This document shows positions 47,120 through 53,125 of a stretch of DNA of 64,000 nucleotides, piece after piece. Below the pieces are notes generated by a model. That model saw only the letters and a program-made list of their open reading frames with translations. It searched no databases and was not told where the DNA came from. Both the position numbers and the translations under genes were made by a program. This DNA comes from Corallococcus sp. RDP092CA. Lineage in GTDB: Bacteria; Myxococcota; Myxococcia; Myxococcales; Myxococcaceae. How positions within the stretch are numbered: position 1 is the stretch's first letter; each line of letters opens with the position of its first letter. The stretch is from assembly GCF_041903675.1 (NCBI RefSeq), contig NZ_JAYESI010000001.1:160643-224642 (forward strand), in the 5' to 3' direction.

Positions 47120-47195
<76 letters not shown>

Positions 47196-47202
47196 AGAAG
47201 TC

Positions 47203-47240
47203 CAAGGGCTTGGGTGGCTTCGGTCGCCCAAGCCCTTTTT
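47203..47240 (+). terminator. Rho-independent terminator after tRNA-Thr
   Basis: caagggcttgggtggcttcggtcgcccaagccc followed by ttttt. Confidence 0.6.
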
Positions 47241-47475
47241 CTATGTTGCCTACGAGGCTCCGCGCCGTTTCGAGTGCCCGCGCGACCGGGCCGAGGAACT
47301 GGTGCATCAAGGAGCCTGACGTCCTCCACTCCCCCCGTCCAATCGTGGCGCGAACAGCGACCGGTCGCTCGTGCCGGTGCCGAGCGGGAGGACCGCGCAA
47401 GCTTCGCTGGGATTGTCGGACCCTGAAGTCAGGATGCCGCGCCTCCTGATTCCAGGAAGGTACCTTGGGGGGAGT

Positions 47476-48774
47476 ATGAGATTGATTGCAGTGGCGTCTT
47501 TGCTGCTTCTGTTGGCGGGGTGCGCGACCCCCCGCGTTGTCCACATCGACGTTGGGAATGGGCAGCGAGTCGTCCATGAGTCGGTGGAGGTTGACCCAGT
47601 TCAGGTGGGTGAGGACGAGTTCAAGGCGGCCCTCACGCAGCTCCTCCTCGACATGCGAATGGACGTTGCCTTCCGCGAGACGGATGCAGCCGACCGGCGA
47701 GGGTGGGTGAGGTCCCGGTCGTTGCTCGCATCCTCGAAGGGGCTCGCGGATTCGGGGGCTGGGGTGTCTCCGGAGTCCCTGTATTCGCGCATCTGCCCCG
47801 AGGGCGACGAGTGCTTGACCCTGGTGGACGGCACGGGGCTGCCCTTCTCGCGCAAGGACCGAACGTTGATGGCCCTGTCGTTCGCGCTGGATACGGTCTG
47901 GGGGAGCGTCGAGGCCGAGATCGGCAAGCTGCTGAACCCGGTGGTGCTCAAGGCCATGGTGACCTCCGCGGCGCTGACCGTGCTCCTCACGATGGCGCTG
48001 CCCGAGCCTGTCACGAAGGTCCTCGCCGTGGCGTTGACGGCGGCGATGGTGGCCTACCTGGGGGTGGTGCCTGTCTGGGAGATGGGACGGGGCTTCGTGC
48101 GGCTGTGGGACAACGCGGAGAGGGCAACGAGCGTCCTCGAGTTGCAGGACATCGGTCATCGCTTCGGGAAGGTGCTGGGGACGAACGGCACGCGTGTCCT
48201 GGTGCTGCTGGTCACGGCGGCCCTGGGTGGGAGGAACGCGATGGCGGCCCAGGGGCCCCGGCTCCCGGGCTTCCCCCAGGCTGTGTCCCGAGGACAAGCC
48301 GAGGCGGGCTTCCAACTCGGAGCGGCGATGAATGGCGGCGTGTCGTCCATCGCGCTGCCCGCTGCTGGAGTGCTGAACGTGACGCTGGCTCCGGGCGCGA
48401 CCGCTGTCGTCGCGATGTACTCGAATGGTATTCAGGGTGACGCTGAAGGTCCGGTTCACCACATCTGTACGAACAAGAACCCGGTTTCGGCTGTATCAGG
48501 CGGTCCCTGGACACCGTTGTGCGAAGAGGTCTTTGCCCGAGCCGGGATGTCCCTGGAAGATGTCTCCAACAAAGTCCGACTCGGGGGACACCAGGGACCT
48601 CATCCACGCGAATACCACGAGGCGGTATTGCGGCGCTTGAATGACGCGCTAGGAAAATGCAGGAGCATGGACGCGTGTCGGAGTCGCCTGGTCGAAGAGC
48701 TTGCCAGAATCGCAGAGGAGCTTCTGACGCCAGGTTCAGCGCTTCGGCGCCTGATTGTGCCGAAAGAGGGCTAG
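47476..48774 (+). CDS. Lipoprotein polymorphic-toxin candidate with C-terminal AHH/HNH-type nuclease domain (SitA-like)
   Basis: MRLIAVASLLLLLAGC lipobox after GGGGGGAG RBS. Two hydrophobic helices mid-protein. C-terminus VHHICTNKN...AGMSLEDVSNKVRLGGHQGPHPREYHEAVLRRL resembles the AHH nuclease signature. GC drops at the C-terminal domain. Confidence 0.55.
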   Translation: MRLIAVASLLLLLAGCATPRVVHIDVGNGQRVVHESVEVDPVQVGEDEFKAALTQLLLDMRMDVAFRETDAADRRGWVRSRSLLASSKGLADSGAGVSPESLYSRICPEGDECLTLVDGTGLPFSRKDRTLMALSFALDTVWGSVEAEIGKLLNPVVLKAMVTSAALTVLLTMALPEPVTKVLAVALTAAMVAYLGVVPVWEMGRGFVRLWDNAERATSVLELQDIGHRFGKVLGTNGTRVLVLLVTAALGGRNAMAAQGPRLPGFPQAVSRGQAEAGFQLGAAMNGGVSSIALPAAGVLNVTLAPGATAVVAMYSNGIQGDAEGPVHHICTNKNPVSAVSGGPWTPLCEEVFARAGMSLEDVSNKVRLGGHQGPHPREYHEAVLRRLNDALGKCRSMDACRSRLVEELARIAEELLTPGSALRRLIVPKEG

Positions 48775-48777
48775 TGG

Positions 48778-49368
48778 ATGTTCAATGGAAATTACTATGA
48801 TGTTGGAATTGCGGATGTCCCTCAGTGGGTGCTGGAGTTGCCTGTTCTTGCATCTGGCGACGAGCTAGACGACCCGTGGATGTTTGGGGACGGAAGGCGC
48901 CTGCCAGAGCCAGGACTCCTCAAGAGCAGGCCGTTCCGTGACGGGCCACAACGGTCCTTCTCTGTGGCGAATTCAGGGAGAACGCCTATCGCAGACGAGC
49001 AGGCTGCGAATGTCTTTCGCAAGCTGGCGCCTGCTGATGTTCAGGTGTTCCCCATCGAAGTCGCAGGAGCGAGGAAGCCACTCTTTGTCATCAACGCAGC
49101 CAGGTGCTTCAAATGCGTTGATGAGACAAACTCCAAGGAGGTGCAGATCTATCCTCCAGAGGGTGTCGCACCGGAGAGAGTCGGAACGTACCGTGCCATT
49201 TACGGACTGCGTATCGACCCTTCCAAATCAGAGGGTGCCCGGGTCTTTCGGATACAAGGCTATTCTTCTGCGTTCATCGTCTCTGAGGACATCAAGACCG
49301 CCCTCGAAGCAGTCGGGAACCTGGGCGTTTCGTTCGAGCGTGTGACCGGACCGCACGAGCCTCACTGA
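48778..49368 (+). CDS. Candidate cognate immunity protein
   Basis: ATG lies 4 nt after the toxin stop. Lowest-GC part of the window. 196 aa. No signal peptide. Confidence 0.4.
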   Translation: MFNGNYYDVGIADVPQWVLELPVLASGDELDDPWMFGDGRRLPEPGLLKSRPFRDGPQRSFSVANSGRTPIADEQAANVFRKLAPADVQVFPIEVAGARKPLFVINAARCFKCVDETNSKEVQIYPPEGVAPERVGTYRAIYGLRIDPSKSEGARVFRIQGYSSAFIVSEDIKTALEAVGNLGVSFERVTGPHEPH

Positions 49369-49375
49369 CGGTCGG

Positions 49376-49615
49376 TCAGGGGCGCGACAGCGTCGCGGGT
49401 GCTCCTCCCGAGGGGAGCAGCGCTTCGCGGTTCTTGAAGAAGATGAAGACACCCATGACGACGAGGAACAGGGAGAAGGCCCGTTTGAGCGCCGCCTGGG
49501 AGACGTAGTGGGACGCCCAGGTGCCGAGGAGGATCCCGGCCACGGCGATGGCCGTGAAGATCCCCAGCGCGCGCCAGGGGACCTCCACGTGGCCCAGGTA
49601 GCCGGCGAAGCCCAC
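49376..49615 (-). pseudogene. C-terminal remnant of a TauE/SafE (TSUP) sulfite-exporter family gene
   Basis: 79-aa ORF equal to the last two TM helices of TSUP proteins (ILLGTWASHYVSQAALKRAFSLFLVVMGVFIFF). No in-frame upstream continuation. Confidence 0.45.
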
Positions 49616-49702
49616 GAAGGCCGAGCGTGGCGAGCCGCGAGGCTTGGAGGTCTTGATAGGGGGAGGGCGTCATCGCTTGTCTCCTGAGGGCCGCGTGGGA
49701 CG

Positions 49703-50404
49703 TCACGCGTCCTGGGGTGAGGGCGCCGTGTGACCACAGGCGCGGTTGGCCGGGACGGCGAGGTCCATCTTCCGGGGCTTGGGAAGATGGAGGTTCTCCA
49801 TGATGTGGATGAACTCCTCGCGGCTCTTGCCGACGAGGCGCGGGTGGTGCCGCTTCTCCTCGGCGATGGTCGTCATCGTGAAGCCCCTGTAGTCATGGGC
49901 GGGGTAGACGCGCGTCGCGTCCGGCAGGTGGAAGAGGACGCGGGTGATGGAGTCGTGGAGCCGGGCCGCGTCTCCGTTCTGGAAGTCGGTGCGGCCGTTG
50001 CCGCGCACGAGCAGCGCGTCGCCGGTGAAGACCCGATCGCCCAGCAGGTAGCTGACGCTGTCATCCGTGTGGCCCGGCGTGGCGAGCACCTGGAAGACGA
50101 GTTGCCCGATGCGCACCTCGTCCCCGTGGCGCACCTGGAGATCGGCGCAGGCGGCGCCGCCCACGCTCCCCACCACCGTGCACCGCGTGCGCTCGCGCAG
50201 CACGCCCGACGCGGTGACGTGGTCGGCGTGCACGTGGGTGTCGAGGACGTGCGTGAGGGTGAGGTCCAGCTCGCGGACCAGTTGTAGATCGCGGTCGACC
50301 TGCTCCAGCACGGGATCGATGAGGACGGCCTGCCGCGTGGCCTCGTCACCGAGGAGGTAGGTGTACGTCGAGGACTCGGAATCGAAAAGCTGGCGGAAAA
50401 TCAT
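49703..50404 (-). CDS. pdo: Persulfide dioxygenase (ETHE1/Blh-like MBL-fold)
   Basis: MIFRQLFDSESSTYTYLL N-terminus. HVHADH metal motif. 233 aa. Confidence 0.8.
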   Translation of the reverse strand: MIFRQLFDSESSTYTYLLGDEATRQAVLIDPVLEQVDRDLQLVRELDLTLTHVLDTHVHADHVTASGVLRERTRCTVVGSVGGAACADLQVRHGDEVRIGQLVFQVLATPGHTDDSVSYLLGDRVFTGDALLVRGNGRTDFQNGDAARLHDSITRVLFHLPDATRVYPAHDYRGFTMTTIAEEKRHHPRLVGKSREEFIHIMENLHLPKPRKMDLAVPANRACGHTAPSPQDA

Positions 50405-50522
50405 GGTCGAAGCCTCCTGCCCGTGAGAGCCAGGGCGCCGCGAAAGGATTCAGGAGGGGGCCCGGTGATACATCCTGGCCGCGGTCCGAATCCTCCGCGG
50501 TGGAACCTGGCTCTCATCCGGC

Positions 50523-50948
50523 ATGACCTCCTTCATCCTCCTTCCCCTCGTGGGCGGGGCGCTCATCGGCCTGAGCGCCTCCTTGCTCCTCCTGGCCAAT
50601 GGCCGGGTGGCCGGAATCAGTGGGGTGGTGGGCTCGCTGCTCACCCCCGCCCGCGGCGACATCGCCTGGCGCCTGTCCTTCCTCGCAGGGCTCCTGGGCG
50701 GCGGGCTGCTGCTGGCGGCGGTGCGCCCCGGGACCTTCGCGGCCACCGCGCCCCCGGGCGTCGGCGGCGCCATCACGCTGGTGGGCGCCGGACTGCTGGT
50801 GGGCTTCGGTTCGCTGCTGGGCAACGGCTGCACGAGCGGACACGGCGTCTGCGGCATCAGCCGGGGGGCGACCCGCTCCATCGCCGCCACGCTCACCTTC
50901 ATGGCCACTGGCGGCCTCACCGTCTTCCTCGTCCGCCACGTCTTCTAG
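50523..50948 (+). CDS. YeeE/YedE-family sulfur-transport membrane protein (half 1)
   Basis: [12 protein letters not shown] signature. 4 TM segments. Confidence 0.7.
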
Positions 50949-50960
50949 GGAGGCCGCTCC

Positions 50961-51437
50961 ATGCGTTCCAACCTCAGTGCGCTGCTCAGCGGCGCTCTCT
51001 TCGCGGTCGGGCTGGGCCTCGCGGGCATGACGGACCCGGCCAACGTTCTCGGGTTCCTCGACGTCGCGGGGGACTGGGACTTCCGGCTCGCCTTCGTGAT
51101 GGCGGGCGCCATCGCCGTCCATGCGGCGCTGCGGCCCCTCGTCCTCCGACGTGAGCGCCCCCTGTTCGCCGGGACGTTCCCTGCCTTCACATCGACGCGG
51201 GTGGACCCCAGGCTCCTCGTGGGGGCGGGCCTCTTCGGCGTGGGGTGGGGGCTCGGAGGCTACTGCCCGGGCCCCGCGCTCACCTCCCTCGCCAGCGGGG
51301 CGTCAGGGGTGCTCCTCTTCGTGCCCGCGATGTTGGTGGGCATGGGGCTCGCCCACGGGTGGCGGTCGCGGCACGGCGGGCGTGCGGACGCCGCGGACCC
51401 GGAGTCCGCGAGCGTGGGCGCGACGCCAGCGTCATGA
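50961..51437 (+). CDS. YeeE/YedE-family membrane protein (half 2)
   Basis: [11 protein letters not shown] signature. Confidence 0.7.
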
Positions 51438-51866
51438 CTCGAGCGAGCGCTTTTTCGGGAGCGCCGCCGCGCTGGCACCTCGGCGTCCGGGGAATGGCGA
51501 TGTGAAGCGGATGGAGTCCGCGCGCTGCCGCCTGGGACCTGACCCCAGGCCGTCAGGGCAGGCGCGCCTCTTCGCGGCTCGGCCCGGGGGGCCTGACGCG
51601 GACCCAGAGGGGGCCCACCTGCCTCCCGCGGCAGTGGCTTCCCGGGCCCGAGCCTGGACGCCGGGGGGAAACGAGGGGGAGGGGGCCCTGGCCGGCCGAC
51701 CCGCTGGCGACCTGAACCCGGCGATAAGCCCGAAGCTGGCCGCCTGCCTGCTTTCCCTGGTGTCAACAGGGAATCTGTCGCACAACGTCACCCGTTAACT
51801 GGCGCGTTCGGCCGTTCGTGCGAGGCGCACGGGAACGCCGCCGGCCCTCTTCGGGAGTCAACGACC

Positions 51867-52640
51867 GTGAGCAACCTCATGAAGGAGTCCGTGCTGCGCG
51901 TGCACCACTGGACCGACACCCTCTTCAGCTTCGTCACCACGCGCGACCCGGGGTTCCGCTTCGCCAGCGGCCAGTTCACGATGATTGGCCTGGAGGTGGA
52001 GAACCGCCCGCTGCTGCGCGCCTACAGCATGGTGAGCGCGCACTATGACGACCACCTCGAGTTCCTCAGCATCAAGGTGCCCGGCGGGCCCCTGACCTCC
52101 CGGCTCCAGCACCTCAAGGAGGGCGACAACGTCCTGGTCAGCCGCAAGGCCACCGGGACGCTCGTCCTCAAGCACCTGCTGCCCGGCAAGAACCTCTACA
52201 TGCTGAGCACGGGCACGGGCCTGGCGCCGTTCCTGAGCCTCGTGAAGGACCCGGAGATGTACGAGCAGTTCGACCGCGTCATCCTCACGCACACCTGCCG
52301 GCGGGCCGAGGAGCTGGCCTACCACGACCTCTTCCTCCATGAGCTGCCGCGCAACGAGTTCTTCGGGGAGCTGGTGAAGCAGAAGCTCACGTACTACCCG
52401 AGCGTCACGCGCGAGGACTTCCGCAACACCGGCCGCATCACGGATCTCATCCGCAGCGAGAAGCTGTTCAAGGACGTGGGCCTGCCGCCGCTGAACCCGG
52501 AGGTCGACCGGGTGATGCTCTGCGGCAGCCCCGCCATGCTCGCGGACCTCACGGTCATGCTGGAGGAGCGCGGCTTCCGGGAGGGCACCCCGGGAGAGGC
52601 CGGCCACTACGTCACCGAGAAGGCCTTCGCCGAGCGCTGA
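51867..52640 (+). CDS. fpr: Ferredoxin/flavodoxin--NADP+ reductase
   Basis: VHHWTDTLFSF...RAYS FAD-binding RxYS motif. MLSTGTGLAPF NADP motif. About 257 aa. Confidence 0.8.
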   Translation: MSNLMKESVLRVHHWTDTLFSFVTTRDPGFRFASGQFTMIGLEVENRPLLRAYSMVSAHYDDHLEFLSIKVPGGPLTSRLQHLKEGDNVLVSRKATGTLVLKHLLPGKNLYMLSTGTGLAPFLSLVKDPEMYEQFDRVILTHTCRRAEELAYHDLFLHELPRNEFFGELVKQKLTYYPSVTREDFRNTGRITDLIRSEKLFKDVGLPPLNPEVDRVMLCGSPAMLADLTVMLEERGFREGTPGEAGHYVTEKAFAER

Positions 52641-52759
52641 GCGGCCACGACCCGCGGCCTGCTGGAGCGGGTCGTCGCCGGGCTGCTCAAAGAGGCGGTC
52701 CCACGGGCCGGCGCCCTCCGGCCGGTAGACCGCCTCCGGCCAGTCCATCGGGGAGACCT

Positions 52760-53125
52760 CTAGCGTGGGGCCGGGTCCTTTCCGGGGGCCCGCGGTGGAT
52801 CCGCCTTCTTGAACGTCTCCTTGGCGACGTTCATCGCGGACAGGGCCTTGGGCCAGCCGCAGTAGAAGGCCAGGTGCGTGAGGGCCTCGACGAGCTCCGA
52901 CTCGGAGAGGCCGTTCTCCCGGGCCTTGGCGAGGTGGAAGGGCAGCTGTTCGGTGTTGCCGCCCACGGTGAGCGCGGCGACGGTGACGAGGCTGCGGTCG
53001 CGGGGCGCAAGCCCCTGGCGCTCCCAGACATCGCCAAACAGCACGTCATCCGTGAGCTGCACCAGCTTGGGCGCGAAGTCGCCCAGCTGCTTCTGGAGCG
53101 CGGAAGGTTCTTTCTTCAGGGTCAT
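52760..53125 (-). CDS. Carboxymuconolactone decarboxylase/AhpD-family protein
   Basis: AhpD-like fold with HLAFYCGWP motif. 121 aa. Confidence 0.7.
   Translation of the reverse strand: MTLKKEPSALQKQLGDFAPKLVQLTDDVLFGDVWERQGLAPRDRSLVTVAALTVGGNTEQLPFHLAKARENGLSESELVEALTHLAFYCGWPKALSAMNVAKETFKKADPPRAPGKDPAPR

What the first reader, a model, noticed from the sequence alone, without database searches (positions are those of the whole stretch)
48380..48774. GC step inside the toxin gene coincides with the C-terminal domain boundary
The first roughly 900 nt of the lipoprotein gene are near genome-typical GC. The last roughly 350 nt, encoding the putative nuclease domain, and the whole downstream gene are markedly AT-richer. 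This is the signature of C-terminal toxin-domain and immunity cassette displacement seen in polymorphic toxin loci.
Basis: seen in the sequence. Interest (0 to 1): 0.6.

Follow-up and report, generated by a model that had tools for sequence, protein, structure and literature searches.

The report
Swapped toxin–immunity cassette in myxobacterial SitA5
The GC drop is real and marks the nuclease-plus-immunity end of a known myxobacterial kin-discrimination toxin (a SitA5 lipoprotein with its SitI partner), and a nearly identical strain carries a different version of exactly that end, so the cassette-swap reading is right but the system is already known.

Summary
Observation confirmed. GC falls from 67.7% to about 57–58% at about nt 48415, almost all of it at third codon positions (GC3 0.85 to 0.62). 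The stretch 48380–49368 is the lowest-GC kilobase in the 64-kb window.

The gene (47476–48774) is a SitA5-family lipoprotein toxin of Corallococcus. It has a lipobox, a SitA5 escort domain and an AHH nuclease domain starting at aa 316. An Imm11 immunity gene (sitI, 48778–49368) follows 3 nt downstream.

A syntenic contig from a near-isogenic strain (L052) has flanks 99.6–100% identical. It is only about 62% identical (48–72% per 100 nt) across 48507–49268, which covers the last ~88 SitA codons and SitI aa 1–164. That is a recombinational cassette replacement. Across 36 homologous units, covariation with immunity starts and stops at the same two points.

The swapped unit therefore starts about 90 nt downstream of the GC step. 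The step itself appears in 45 of 46 related units, in the alternative allele, and in SitA5 genes carrying unrelated toxins. It marks the module in general, not this particular swap.

The finding is correct and typical of its kind, in a characterised family. It is a new allele of a known kind, and interest is low to moderate.

The parts
47120..47195 (+). tRNA-Thr(CGT). It marks a conserved chromosomal site where sitAI5 units sit in several myxobacterial genera.
   Evidence: ARAGORN and Rfam RF00005 at 75 bits. The same tRNA plus the gdh left flank is syntenic in L016, L023, L026, L027, L029, L030, L031, L042 and L052.
47204..47237 (+). Terminator-like hairpin (15-bp stem plus T-run) after the tRNA. 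It implies that sitA has its own promoter somewhere in 47240-47475.
   Evidence: Consensus scan. No sigma-70-like promoter was found. The promoter is inferred only.
47476..48774 (+). sitA5: a 432-aa lipoprotein polymorphic toxin.
   Evidence: ORF. 100% identical to P0001, 'AHH domain-containing protein [Corallococcus sp. RDP092CA]'. NCBIfam SitA5_escort plus Pfam AHH.
47476..47523 (+). Signal peptide with lipobox L-A-G-C. Cys16 is the lipidation site and residue +2 is Ala.
   Evidence: Sequence MRLIAVASLLLLLAGC. C16 is invariant in 27 homologs.
47500..48414 (+). SitA5 escort domain (aa 9 to about 313), with high GC3.
   Evidence: NCBIfam NF050093 matches aa 9-254 at 285.6 bits against a cut-off of 160. 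Homology to SitA5 proteins with other toxins runs to aa ~310. GC3 is 0.85.
48421..48723 (+). AHH nuclease domain (HNH/EndoVII superfamily), aa 316-416.
   Evidence: Pfam PF14412, E 2.9e-20, 72.8 bits against a cut-off of 22.3. H328, H329, H372, H376 and H381 are invariant.
48415..48506 (+). Low-GC but conserved first part of the AHH domain (GPVHHICTNKN...GGPWTP). It was not exchanged and forms the left homology arm of the cassette.
   Evidence: One mismatch (48507 is the first of the divergent block) against L052 across this stretch. GC is 53%. It shows no covariation with SitI (rho 0.07-0.10).
48507..49268 (+). The exchanged specificity cassette: SitA aa 345-432 plus the 3-nt spacer plus SitI aa 1-164. 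The window carries allele class 1.
   Evidence: About 62% nt identity to syntenic L052 (48-72% per 100-nt block), between flanks that are 98-100% identical. First mismatch at 48507, last at about 49268. Family-wide covariation has the same boundaries. Class assignment.
48778..49368 (+). sitI: a 196-aa Imm11-family immunity protein. Its start lies 3 nt after the sitA stop, and a GAGGG ribosome-binding motif lies within the sitA 3' end.
   Evidence: Pfam PF07791, E 5e-7, 29.7 bits against a cut-off of 22.1. 100% identical to P0121, 'imm11 family protein [Corallococcus sp. RDP092CA]'. Sequence read.
49269..49368 (+). Conserved SitI tail (aa 165-196). It is of the resident type and forms the right homology arm.
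   Evidence: 100% identical to L052. The tail residues F, D and A match L052 and class 6 rather than class 1. It shows no covariation with the SitI body (rho 0.13 and -0.04).
48380..49368 (.). The low-GC stretch: 58.0% against a window mean of 71.6%.

Best explanation
This is a sitA5-sitI toxin/immunity operon of a Corallococcus strain. It belongs to the SitA polymorphic lipoprotein toxins that myxobacteria pass to neighbours by TraA/TraB-mediated outer-membrane exchange.

SitA5 is made as an outer-membrane lipoprotein (lipobox Cys16). Its about 310-aa escort domain takes it from the recipient's outer membrane into the cytoplasm; for tested SitA5 proteins this needs ExbB1. The C-terminal AHH (HNH/EndoVII-type) nuclease then attacks nucleic acid unless the recipient makes the matching cytoplasmic SitI (Imm11).

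The GC step marks the junction between the escort domain and the toxin/immunity module. In the window's lineage, homologous recombination replaced the specificity-determining segment (48507-49268: SitA aa 345-432 plus SitI aa 1-164). The incoming segment belongs to a different allele class (class 1) and went into a resident backbone. The conserved AHH core (..GGPWTP) and the conserved SitI tail served as homology arms. The expected result is a new toxin/immunity specificity, that is, a changed 'self' barcode.

The low GC3 of the module is a standing, family-wide property and not a footprint of that event.

Shown here: the composition, the domain identities, the mosaic structure, the breakpoints, and the linkage between toxin and immunity sequences. 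Inferred from the characterised family: delivery by outer-membrane exchange, the entry route, nuclease action, and neutralisation by SitI. Inferred by parsimony: the direction of the swap.
For: Identity of the proteins:
- NCBIfam SitA5_escort at 285.6 bits (cut-off 160), Pfam AHH E 3e-20 and Imm11 E 5e-7.
- Lipobox with an invariant Cys16.
- The protein is 100% identical to a Corallococcus sp. RDP092CA protein, and one homolog is named 'SitA5 family polymorphic toxin' by NCBI.

Family biology, from PMC8546572 and PMC5562445:
- SitA5 escort and toxin domains are modular.
- The tested allele SitA5Mf2 has an AHH nuclease.
- An ExbB1 mutation confers resistance to SitA5.
- Transfer depends on TraA.

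The swap:
- Against L052, gdh is 99.9% identical, the tRNA 100%, SitA up to 48500 98.2%, 48501-48774 62.0%, sitI 62.1%, and the downstream region 99.6%.
- The edges are sharp, at 48507 and 49268.

Linkage:
- Identity of the variable toxin part against SitI gives rho 0.86. Escort domain against SitI gives 0.06.
- Covariation with SitI switches on at SitA aa 349 and off at SitI aa ~168 across 630 pairs.

Direction of the swap:
- All eight other tRNA-Thr-syntenic loci carry immunity classes 3, 4 or 6, and L052 carries class 6. Only the window carries class 1.
- The window's SitI tail and AHH core are of the L052 type, not the class-1 type.

Modularity at family level:
- 85 escort-domain representatives carry AHH, CdiA_C, Tox-REase-5, Colicin-DNase, WHH, HNH, TreTu_C, Ntox21/27/37 and other domains.

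The GC step is generic:
- Mean GC3 is 0.81 / 0.675 / 0.675 (escort / toxin C-part / SitI) over 46 units, and 45 of 46 are positive.
- L052 shows the same step, and so do L047 and L048, which carry unrelated toxins.
- dS between cassette classes is about 1.3-1.5, so synonymous sites are saturated, yet GC3 stays about 0.65.
Against: - No function was tested here. Toxicity, immunity, TraAB-dependent transfer and the entry route are all taken from characterised relatives whose escort domains are divergent; the SitA5 family is described as the most diverse in its escort domains (PMC8546572).
- The donor of the class-1 segment was not found. The best SitI relative is 86% identical.
- Divergence from L052 is also about 10-fold higher across 47300-48500 (about 1.8-2.5%) than in the flanks. 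The history may therefore involve a longer imported tract or several events, not one clean 762-bp exchange.
- Average dN/dS in the cassette is 0.13-0.18, so pairwise averages show no diversifying selection.
- L052 is a metagenome/SRA-derived contig of unknown strain identity.
Confidence: 0.85

Rival explanations
1. The low-GC block is a recently acquired foreign island. It would have come from a lower-GC donor, integrated next to tRNA-Thr by a site-specific recombinase, and not yet ameliorated.
For: The position is directly downstream of a tRNA gene. The block is the lowest-GC kilobase in the window. sitAI loci are often on mobile elements (PMC8546572).
Against: - There is no integrase and no repeat of the tRNA 3' end downstream.
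- sitA5 sits at this tRNA-Thr/gdh site in Myxococcus, Cystobacter and MAG genomes, so it is an old resident.
- The low-GC block starts inside the gene, not at the tRNA.
- The same step is found in 45 of 46 units at many loci and in the alternative allele.
- Cassette classes differ by dS of about 1.3-1.5 yet all remain at GC3 about 0.65.
- All SitI relatives listed (the best 120 of 184) that carry a source name are from myxobacteria; about a third are unnamed metagenome proteins.
Confidence: 0.05
2. The GC step is only a by-product of amino-acid composition. On this view the AHH and Imm11 domains need more AT-rich codons (Lys, Asn, Glu, Ile), and the step has no evolutionary meaning.
For: Total GC in the family drops sharply at aa 316, where the domain changes. 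GC1 falls slightly, from 0.70 to 0.66 and 0.63.
Against: GC2 is unchanged (0.48, 0.47, 0.45). Most of the drop is at third positions (0.85 to 0.62 and 0.61). GC3 is low across the module in all alleles.
Confidence: 0.05
3. The difference from L052 arose in place, by very fast diversifying mutation of the toxin/immunity interface, not by recombination.
For: Toxin-immunity interfaces are classic targets of diversifying selection. Invariant catalytic residues are interspersed with variable positions.
Against: Flanks are 99.6-100% identical while the cassette is about 62% identical, with saturated synonymous change (dS 3.5 or undefined). The edges are sharp. The window's segment groups with class-1 alleles at other loci and in other genera (74-89% aa), while L052's groups with class 6. 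Mean dN/dS is 0.13-0.18.
Confidence: 0.01
4. The exchange took place in L052's lineage and not in the window's. Alternatively, the whole sitAI gene pair was imported from another strain's orthologous locus, and the class-1/backbone junctions are older.
For: Divergence from L052 is about 1.8-2.5% over 47300-48500 against about 0.1% in gdh, which fits a longer imported tract that begins upstream of sitA. L055 and L056 show that the class-1 chimera exists in other samples at 98.4% identity.
Against: All other syntenic loci carry non-class-1 cassettes. The window's AHH core and SitI tail are of the L052 type. The class-1/backbone junctions must have formed by recombination at this locus in any case.
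Confidence: 0.25

Closest known systems
SitA5/SitI of Myxococcus. SitA5Mf2 is the AHH-bearing allele tested in Vassallo & Wall 2019 (PNAS, not held in the paper library) and in PMC8546572.
   Same: A lipoprotein signal, a SitA5 escort domain above the NCBIfam cut-off, a C-terminal AHH nuclease, an adjacent downstream immunity gene, a myxobacterial host, many paralogs per genome, and escort and toxin domains that are modular.
   Different: This allele is untested. Identity to the tested Myxococcus alleles was not measured. Close homologs from Myxococcus species are 73-83% identical overall. The nearest SitI is 86% identical. What is added here is the exchangeable unit within the AHH subclade. 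It is a sub-domain segment (the last ~88 aa of the toxin plus SitI aa 1-164), and the catalytic HH core and the SitI tail lie outside it.
Rhs C-terminal displacement (Jackson et al. 2009, PMC2935791) and CdiA-CT/CdiI modules.
   Same: A conserved N-terminal delivery part, a variable C-terminal toxin tip with a linked immunity gene, new combinations made by recombination at a conserved junction, a composition change at the junction, and displaced tips or orphan immunity genes left downstream. Relatives show such relics: L008 has a 22-aa AHH tip remnant plus a second Imm11, and L001 has three tandem Imm11 genes.
   Different: Delivery is by outer-membrane exchange of a lipoprotein, not by T6SS or T5SS. 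In the window the old cassette was replaced cleanly, with no orphan relic. The junction used lies inside the toxin domain, not at a PxxxxDPxGL- or VENN-type demarcation motif.
Pfam AHH (PF14412) with Imm11 (PF07791, 'MXAN_0049 immunity').
   Same: Both HMMs match above their gathering scores. The His dyad and the downstream His residues are conserved.
   Different: The motif reads VHH, not AHH. Imm11 matches only profile positions 75-192. No solved structure is available and no fold match was found.

Membership tests
SitA5 polymorphic lipoprotein toxin (delivered by outer-membrane exchange) | N-terminal type II signal peptide with a lipobox cysteine | tested here: met
   MRLIAVASLLLLLAGC. Cys16 is invariant in 27 homologs.
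SitA5 polymorphic lipoprotein toxin (delivered by outer-membrane exchange) | Family-specific escort domain | tested here: met
   NCBIfam NF050093 SitA5_escort, 285.6 bits against a cut-off of 160, aa 9-254.
SitA5 polymorphic lipoprotein toxin (delivered by outer-membrane exchange) | C-terminal toxin domain that is polymorphic and modular across the family | tested here: met
   AHH in the window's gene. Escort-domain homologs carry at least 14 other Pfam toxin families. L047 and L048 carry an unrelated C-terminus.
SitA5 polymorphic lipoprotein toxin (delivered by outer-membrane exchange) | Cognate immunity gene immediately downstream in the same operon | tested here: met
   An Imm11 ORF starts 3 nt after the sitA stop. 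Toxin and immunity sequences covary, rho 0.86.
SitA5 polymorphic lipoprotein toxin (delivered by outer-membrane exchange) | Myxobacterial host with many paralogous loci | tested here: met
   The protein is identical to one from Corallococcus sp. RDP092CA. Relatives have multiple copies per genome, for example L006 with three tandem units and several loci each in C. carmarthensis and Cystobacter fuscus.
SitA5 polymorphic lipoprotein toxin (delivered by outer-membrane exchange) | TraA/TraB-dependent cell-to-cell transfer, killing of non-immune kin, and ExbB1-dependent entry | not testable with these tools
   Known for tested SitA5 alleles only (PMC8546572, PMC5562445).
AHH nuclease (PF14412, HNH/EndoVII superfamily) | HMM match above the gathering score, with the conserved HH dyad and downstream His residues | tested here: met
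   72.8 bits against 22.3. H328, H329, H372, H376 and H381 are invariant in 101 sequences. The first motif residue is V, not A.
AHH nuclease (PF14412, HNH/EndoVII superfamily) | beta-beta-alpha-metal finger fold | tested here: inconclusive
Imm11 immunity protein (PF07791) | HMM match above the gathering score and a position next to a toxin gene | tested here: met
   29.7 bits against 22.1, profile positions 75-192 of 194. The L052 allele scores 49.2 bits.
C-terminal displacement of polymorphic toxins | The same locus in related strains has a conserved N-part and replaced C-part plus immunity, with sharp recombination edges | tested here: met
   Window against L052. The boundaries are family-wide.
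C-terminal displacement of polymorphic toxins | A displaced orphan tip or orphan immunity gene left downstream | tested here: not met
   The window has only one N, one C and one immunity match. Relics do occur in relatives L008 and L001.
tRNA-integrated genomic island | An integrase and a direct repeat of the tRNA 3' end bounding the insert | tested here: not met
   No repeat of >=14 nt (<=1 mismatch) of the tRNA was found in 47196-53000. No integrase ORF lies between the tRNA and the MBL-fold gene.

The most novel reading that the evidence does not exclude
The AHH subclade of SitA5 may have evolved a built-in sub-domain 'specificity cassette'. This cassette is the last ~88 residues of the toxin plus the first ~165 residues of SitI. 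It is bracketed by two conserved arms, the catalytic HH..GGPWTP core and the SitI tail, which let cells swap specificity by short homologous exchanges without touching the catalytic core or the delivery domain.

The module's persistently low GC3, despite saturated synonymous divergence, may also be a steady state. It could arise because old, balanced allele classes recombine too rarely with each other to feel GC-biased gene conversion or weak codon selection. It would then not be a relic of foreign origin. If so, GC3 depression could serve as a general genomic marker of long-term balancing selection in high-GC bacteria.
Probability: 0.3. Interest if true: 0.5.

Novelty: new member of a known kind. 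Interest (0 to 1): 0.3.

Why it matters
SitA/SitI repertoires are the 'self-identity barcodes' that decide which myxobacterial cells can live together in a swarm. This locus gives a clean natural example of how a barcode digit changes. Two otherwise near-identical haplotypes differ by a 762-bp exchange that replaces only the immunity-facing part of the nuclease and most of its immunity protein.

The mapped boundaries predict which residues set toxin-immunity specificity and which part of SitI is dispensable for it. Chimeras can test this directly.

There is also a caution for genome scans. In this family, a GC step inside a toxin gene identifies the module but does not date or locate a recent transfer.

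Tried and rejected
- **Full-length AF2 model** (27-sequence alignment): pLDDT 43, unusable for the escort domain.
- **Search for an att-like repeat of the tRNA 3' end**: none found.
- **Search for a recent donor of the class-1 cassette**: the best SitI is 86% identical and no second copy comes from the same strain.
- **Pairwise dN/dS**: no excess in the cassette (0.13-0.18), so diversifying selection could not be shown by this crude measure.
- **Pfam on the alternative C-termini and immunity genes of L047 and L048**: no family.
- **Papers not held**: three look-ups failed, two for the 2019 PNAS SitA-family paper (by DOI and by PMC id) and one for the 2020 ISME J paper. Whether the sub-domain cassette boundaries or the GC step have already been described there could not be checked.
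- **Promoter scan upstream of sitA**: no sigma-70-like site.
- **Simple form of the recombination/gBGC idea**: the non-exchanged AHH core (48415-48506) is as AT-rich as the cassette. The idea is therefore kept only as a speculative reading.
Full report
**The observation**

A 200-nt sliding profile shows GC of 0.67-0.73 across 47600-48400. It falls to 0.53-0.61 across 48400-49300 and returns to 0.66-0.71 after 49300. A maximum-likelihood two-segment fit over the two genes puts the change at nt 48415, with 67.7% to the left and 57.3% to the right.

The stretch 48380-49368 has 58.0% GC. It is essentially the lowest-GC kilobase of the 64-kb window, whose mean is 71.6% with sd 3.1.

The drop is mostly synonymous. 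GC1/GC2/GC3 are 0.70/0.48/0.85 for SitA aa 1-313, 0.66/0.47/0.62 for aa 314-432 and 0.63/0.45/0.61 for the downstream gene. The 45 coding-like ORFs of the window have GC3 0.933 +/- 0.053. Two nuances apply:
- The N-terminal part is itself about 1.5 sd below typical.
- GC3 declines as a ramp from about 48230 to about 48400.

**What is there**

The ORF most likely starts at ATG 47476, giving MRLIAVASLLLLLAGC with a lipobox. Cys16 is invariant in homologs. The ORF ends at 48774 and encodes 432 aa.

- NCBIfam places aa 9-254 in SitA5_escort (NF050093) at 285.6 bits against a cut-off of 160.
- Pfam places aa 316-416 in AHH (PF14412) with E 2.9e-20.
- The next ORF (48778-49368, 196 aa) starts 3 nt after the stop and is Imm11 (PF07791) with E 5e-7.
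- Both proteins are 100% identical to proteins of Corallococcus sp. RDP092CA.

Upstream lie gdh on the minus strand, tRNA-Thr(CGT) at 47120-47195, and a strong terminator-like hairpin. Downstream lie a TauE fragment and an MBL-fold gene on the minus strand. Rfam finds only the tRNA.

**Known biology of the family** (PMC8546572; PMC5562445)

SitA proteins are lipoprotein toxins transferred between myxobacterial cells by TraA/TraB-dependent outer-membrane exchange. Each of six families is defined by an N-terminal escort domain of about 375 aa that mediates entry into the cytoplasm. For SitA5, an ExbB1 mutation confers resistance. The C-terminal domains are nucleases, and SitI proteins give immunity. 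SitA5 is one of the modular families, and one tested allele (SitA5Mf2) carries AHH.

The top 120 full-length homologs are all about 430 aa with AHH. At close range, therefore, the fold of the C-terminus does not vary.

I fetched 51 genomic loci and compared the parts separately.
- Escort-domain identity to the window is a flat 77-85%.
- AHH identity is bimodal, at 62-70% or 81-89%.
- AHH identity tracks immunity identity, at 50-56% or 74-85%.

In an all-against-all analysis of 36 complete units, identity in SitA aa 344-432 correlates with identity in SitI at Spearman 0.86 (Mantel p<=0.001). The escort domain does not correlate with SitI (0.06, p 0.18). SitI sequences fall into six classes at 70% identity. 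The window belongs to class 1, which is only 43-50% identical to all the others.

At the wider family level, a search of 1.84 billion representatives with the escort domain alone found 379 clusters. Among 85 full-length representatives the C-termini include AHH (13), CdiA_C (7), Tox-REase-5 (5), Colicin-DNase, WHH, HNH, TreTu_C, 2'-5' RNA ligase-like, Ntox21/27/37 and LHH. Many have no Pfam match. L047 and L048 are examples that pass the SitA5_escort cut-off but carry an unrelated C-terminus and unrelated immunity genes.

**Direct evidence of replacement at this locus**

P0002 (90% identical) is encoded on L052, a 6.4-kb contig with the same neighbours: PilZ, gdh, sitA, Imm11, TauE and rhodanese. 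Aligned to the window, identities are as follows:

| Segment | Identity to L052 |
|---|---|
| gdh | 99.9% |
| tRNA | 100% |
| sitA 47476-48500 | 98.2% |
| sitA 48501-48774 | 62.0% |
| sitI | 62.1% |
| 250 nt after sitI | 99.6% |

The first mismatch of the divergent block is at 48507, just after the codons for GGPWTP. The last is at about 49268, and the final 33 codons of sitI are identical. Synonymous divergence inside the block is saturated, while outside it is 0.00-0.05. Only recombination can produce this pattern.

The same gene pair as L052 occurs in three independent SRA assemblies. The window's class-1 chimera occurs at 98.4% identity in two further metagenomes (L055, L056).

**Direction of the exchange**

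The left flank (gdh plus tRNA-Thr) is syntenic in L016, L023, L026, L027, L029, L030, L031 and L042, which come from Myxococcus, Cystobacter and a MAG. Those loci carry immunity classes 3, 4 or 6. L052 is class 6 and is closest to the syntenic M. vastator allele.

The window's SitI tail reads SAFIVSEDIKTALEAV. That matches L052 and class 6, not class 1, which reads SALIVSEEIK.ALEEV in most members. The window's AHH core shares a one-residue deletion with L052.

The window allele is therefore best read as a resident backbone that received a class-1 segment. Divergence from L052 of 1.8-2.5% across 47300-48500, against about 0.1% in gdh, leaves room for a longer tract or more than one event.

**The boundaries are family-wide**

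For 12-codon bins along both genes, I correlated identity in each bin with identity in the SitI body over 630 pairs.
- Through SitA aa 348 the correlation is about 0.1 or less in most bins (at most 0.23).
- It jumps to 0.62 at aa 349-360.
- It stays mostly between 0.3 and 0.86 through SitI aa 168, with one low bin (0.14 at aa 145-156).
- It drops to 0.13 and -0.04 in the last two bins.

The co-inherited unit is therefore SitA aa ~345-432 plus SitI aa 1 to ~168, which is the same unit exchanged between the window and L052. The HH catalytic core (aa 313-348) is linked neither to SitI nor strongly to the escort domain.

**What the GC step does and does not mean**

The step coincides with the escort/AHH domain boundary at aa 313-316. 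It lies about 90 nt upstream of the exchanged unit, and the non-exchanged AHH core is as AT-rich as the cassette (53% GC).

The step is generic. Mean GC is 66.4 / 58.5 / 58.3% and mean GC3 is 0.81 / 0.675 / 0.675 for escort, toxin C-part and SitI over 46 units, and 45 of 46 show the drop. L052 shows it too, with GC3 0.84 / 0.57 / 0.61. So do L047 and L048, which carry unrelated toxins.

Cassette classes differ by dS of about 1.3-1.5, against about 0.7 for the escort domain. Synonymous sites have therefore turned over while GC3 stayed low.

I conclude that the step marks the module and is maintained. It is not an un-ameliorated footprint of the recent swap. Possible causes are inference only:
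- reduced GC-biased conversion or weak-selection efficacy in old, rarely recombining allele classes;
- circulation on AT-richer mobile elements.

**Mechanism**

Delivery, entry, nuclease action and neutralisation are inferred from family membership. Not one of them was tested here.

Structure prediction did not add support. The full-length model failed (pLDDT 43). A confident AHH-domain model (pLDDT 85.8) found no solved relative.

**Comparison with known systems, and verdict**

This is a member of the SitA5/SitI family, and all testable defining features were met. Its evolution matches the C-terminal displacement described for Rhs (PMC2935791), with two differences:
- The junction lies inside the toxin domain.
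- No orphan relic remains in the window, although relatives do show relics: L008 has a 22-aa AHH tip remnant plus a second Imm11, and L001 has three tandem Imm11 genes.

The system is known, and the allele and the mapped sub-domain cassette are modest additions.

Noticed in passing
window 49619/49620 (compare L052 5124-5972): The window lacks about 849 bp that are present in the near-isogenic contig L052. The missing piece covers the N-terminal two-thirds of a TauE/SafE sulfite-exporter gene and most of a rhodanese gene. The junction has 2-bp microhomology. The 79-aa ORF at 49376-49615 (minus strand) is the remaining TauE fragment (Pfam TauE E 7.5e-10).
   Followed up: partly
L055 1655/1656 and L056 (window-equivalent position 48653): Two metagenome contigs carry the window's class-1 sitA allele at 98.4% identity, but an IS element (DUF4096 transposase ORF) is inserted after the codon for G393. 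This truncates the AHH domain (...NDALG|RVRK*). It may be a natural toxin knock-out at the same locus. Whether sitI survives downstream is unknown, because the contigs end.
   Followed up: partly
L008 7973-8618; L001 7306-9296; L006 104-7893; L022 5527-9489; L048 7309-9012: Relatives show the classic relics and arrays of polymorphic toxin loci. L008 has a 22-aa AHH C-terminal remnant followed by a second Imm11 gene. L001 has three tandem Imm11 genes. L006 has three and L022 two complete sitAI5 units in tandem. L048 has three tandem paralogs of an unrelated immunity gene.
   Followed up: partly
window 47120-47475 and loci L016, L023, L026, L027, L029, L030, L031, L042, L052: The site between gdh/tRNA-Thr(CGT) and the TauE/MBL genes is a conserved sitAI5 site across Corallococcus, Myxococcus, Cystobacter and a MAG. 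The distance from the tRNA to sitA varies from 0.15 to 4.3 kb. In L027, L029 and L030 the right-flank homology starts 4-6 kb after the tRNA, so the site holds a variable amount of cargo. No integrase or att repeat was seen in the window.
   Followed up: partly
window 47300-48500 vs L052: Divergence from L052 is about 1.8-2.5% across the sitA upstream region and the escort domain, against about 0.1% in gdh and 0-0.4% after sitI. One cluster has 5 mismatches in 30 nt (47740-47769). This suggests a longer imported tract or gene-conversion patches from paralogs.
   Followed up: no
window 47930-48230 (SitA aa ~153-250): The escort domain contains long hydrophobic, near-invariant helices (for example LNPVVLKAMVTSAALTVLLTMALPEPVTKVLAVALTAAMVAYLGVVPVW and TRVLVLLVTAALGG). 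That is unusual for a soluble lipoprotein domain and may be relevant to membrane translocation. AlphaFold2 could not model the domain (pLDDT about 30-40).
   Followed up: no
L039 (BNCN01000017.1): A record titled 'Comamonas sp. KCTC 72670' encodes a complete SitA5-AHH/Imm11 unit (51% and 41% identical) in a locus with 67% GC. The record may be mislabelled or contaminated, since every other hit that carries a source name is myxobacterial.
   Followed up: no
SitA aa 271-313 (window 48286-48414): Across the family, the last ~40 residues of the escort domain already show lower GC3 (0.68-0.73) and higher dS (about 0.9-1.0) than the rest of the escort domain, although their protein sequence is well conserved. 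The compositional boundary therefore sits slightly upstream of the domain boundary.
   Followed up: no
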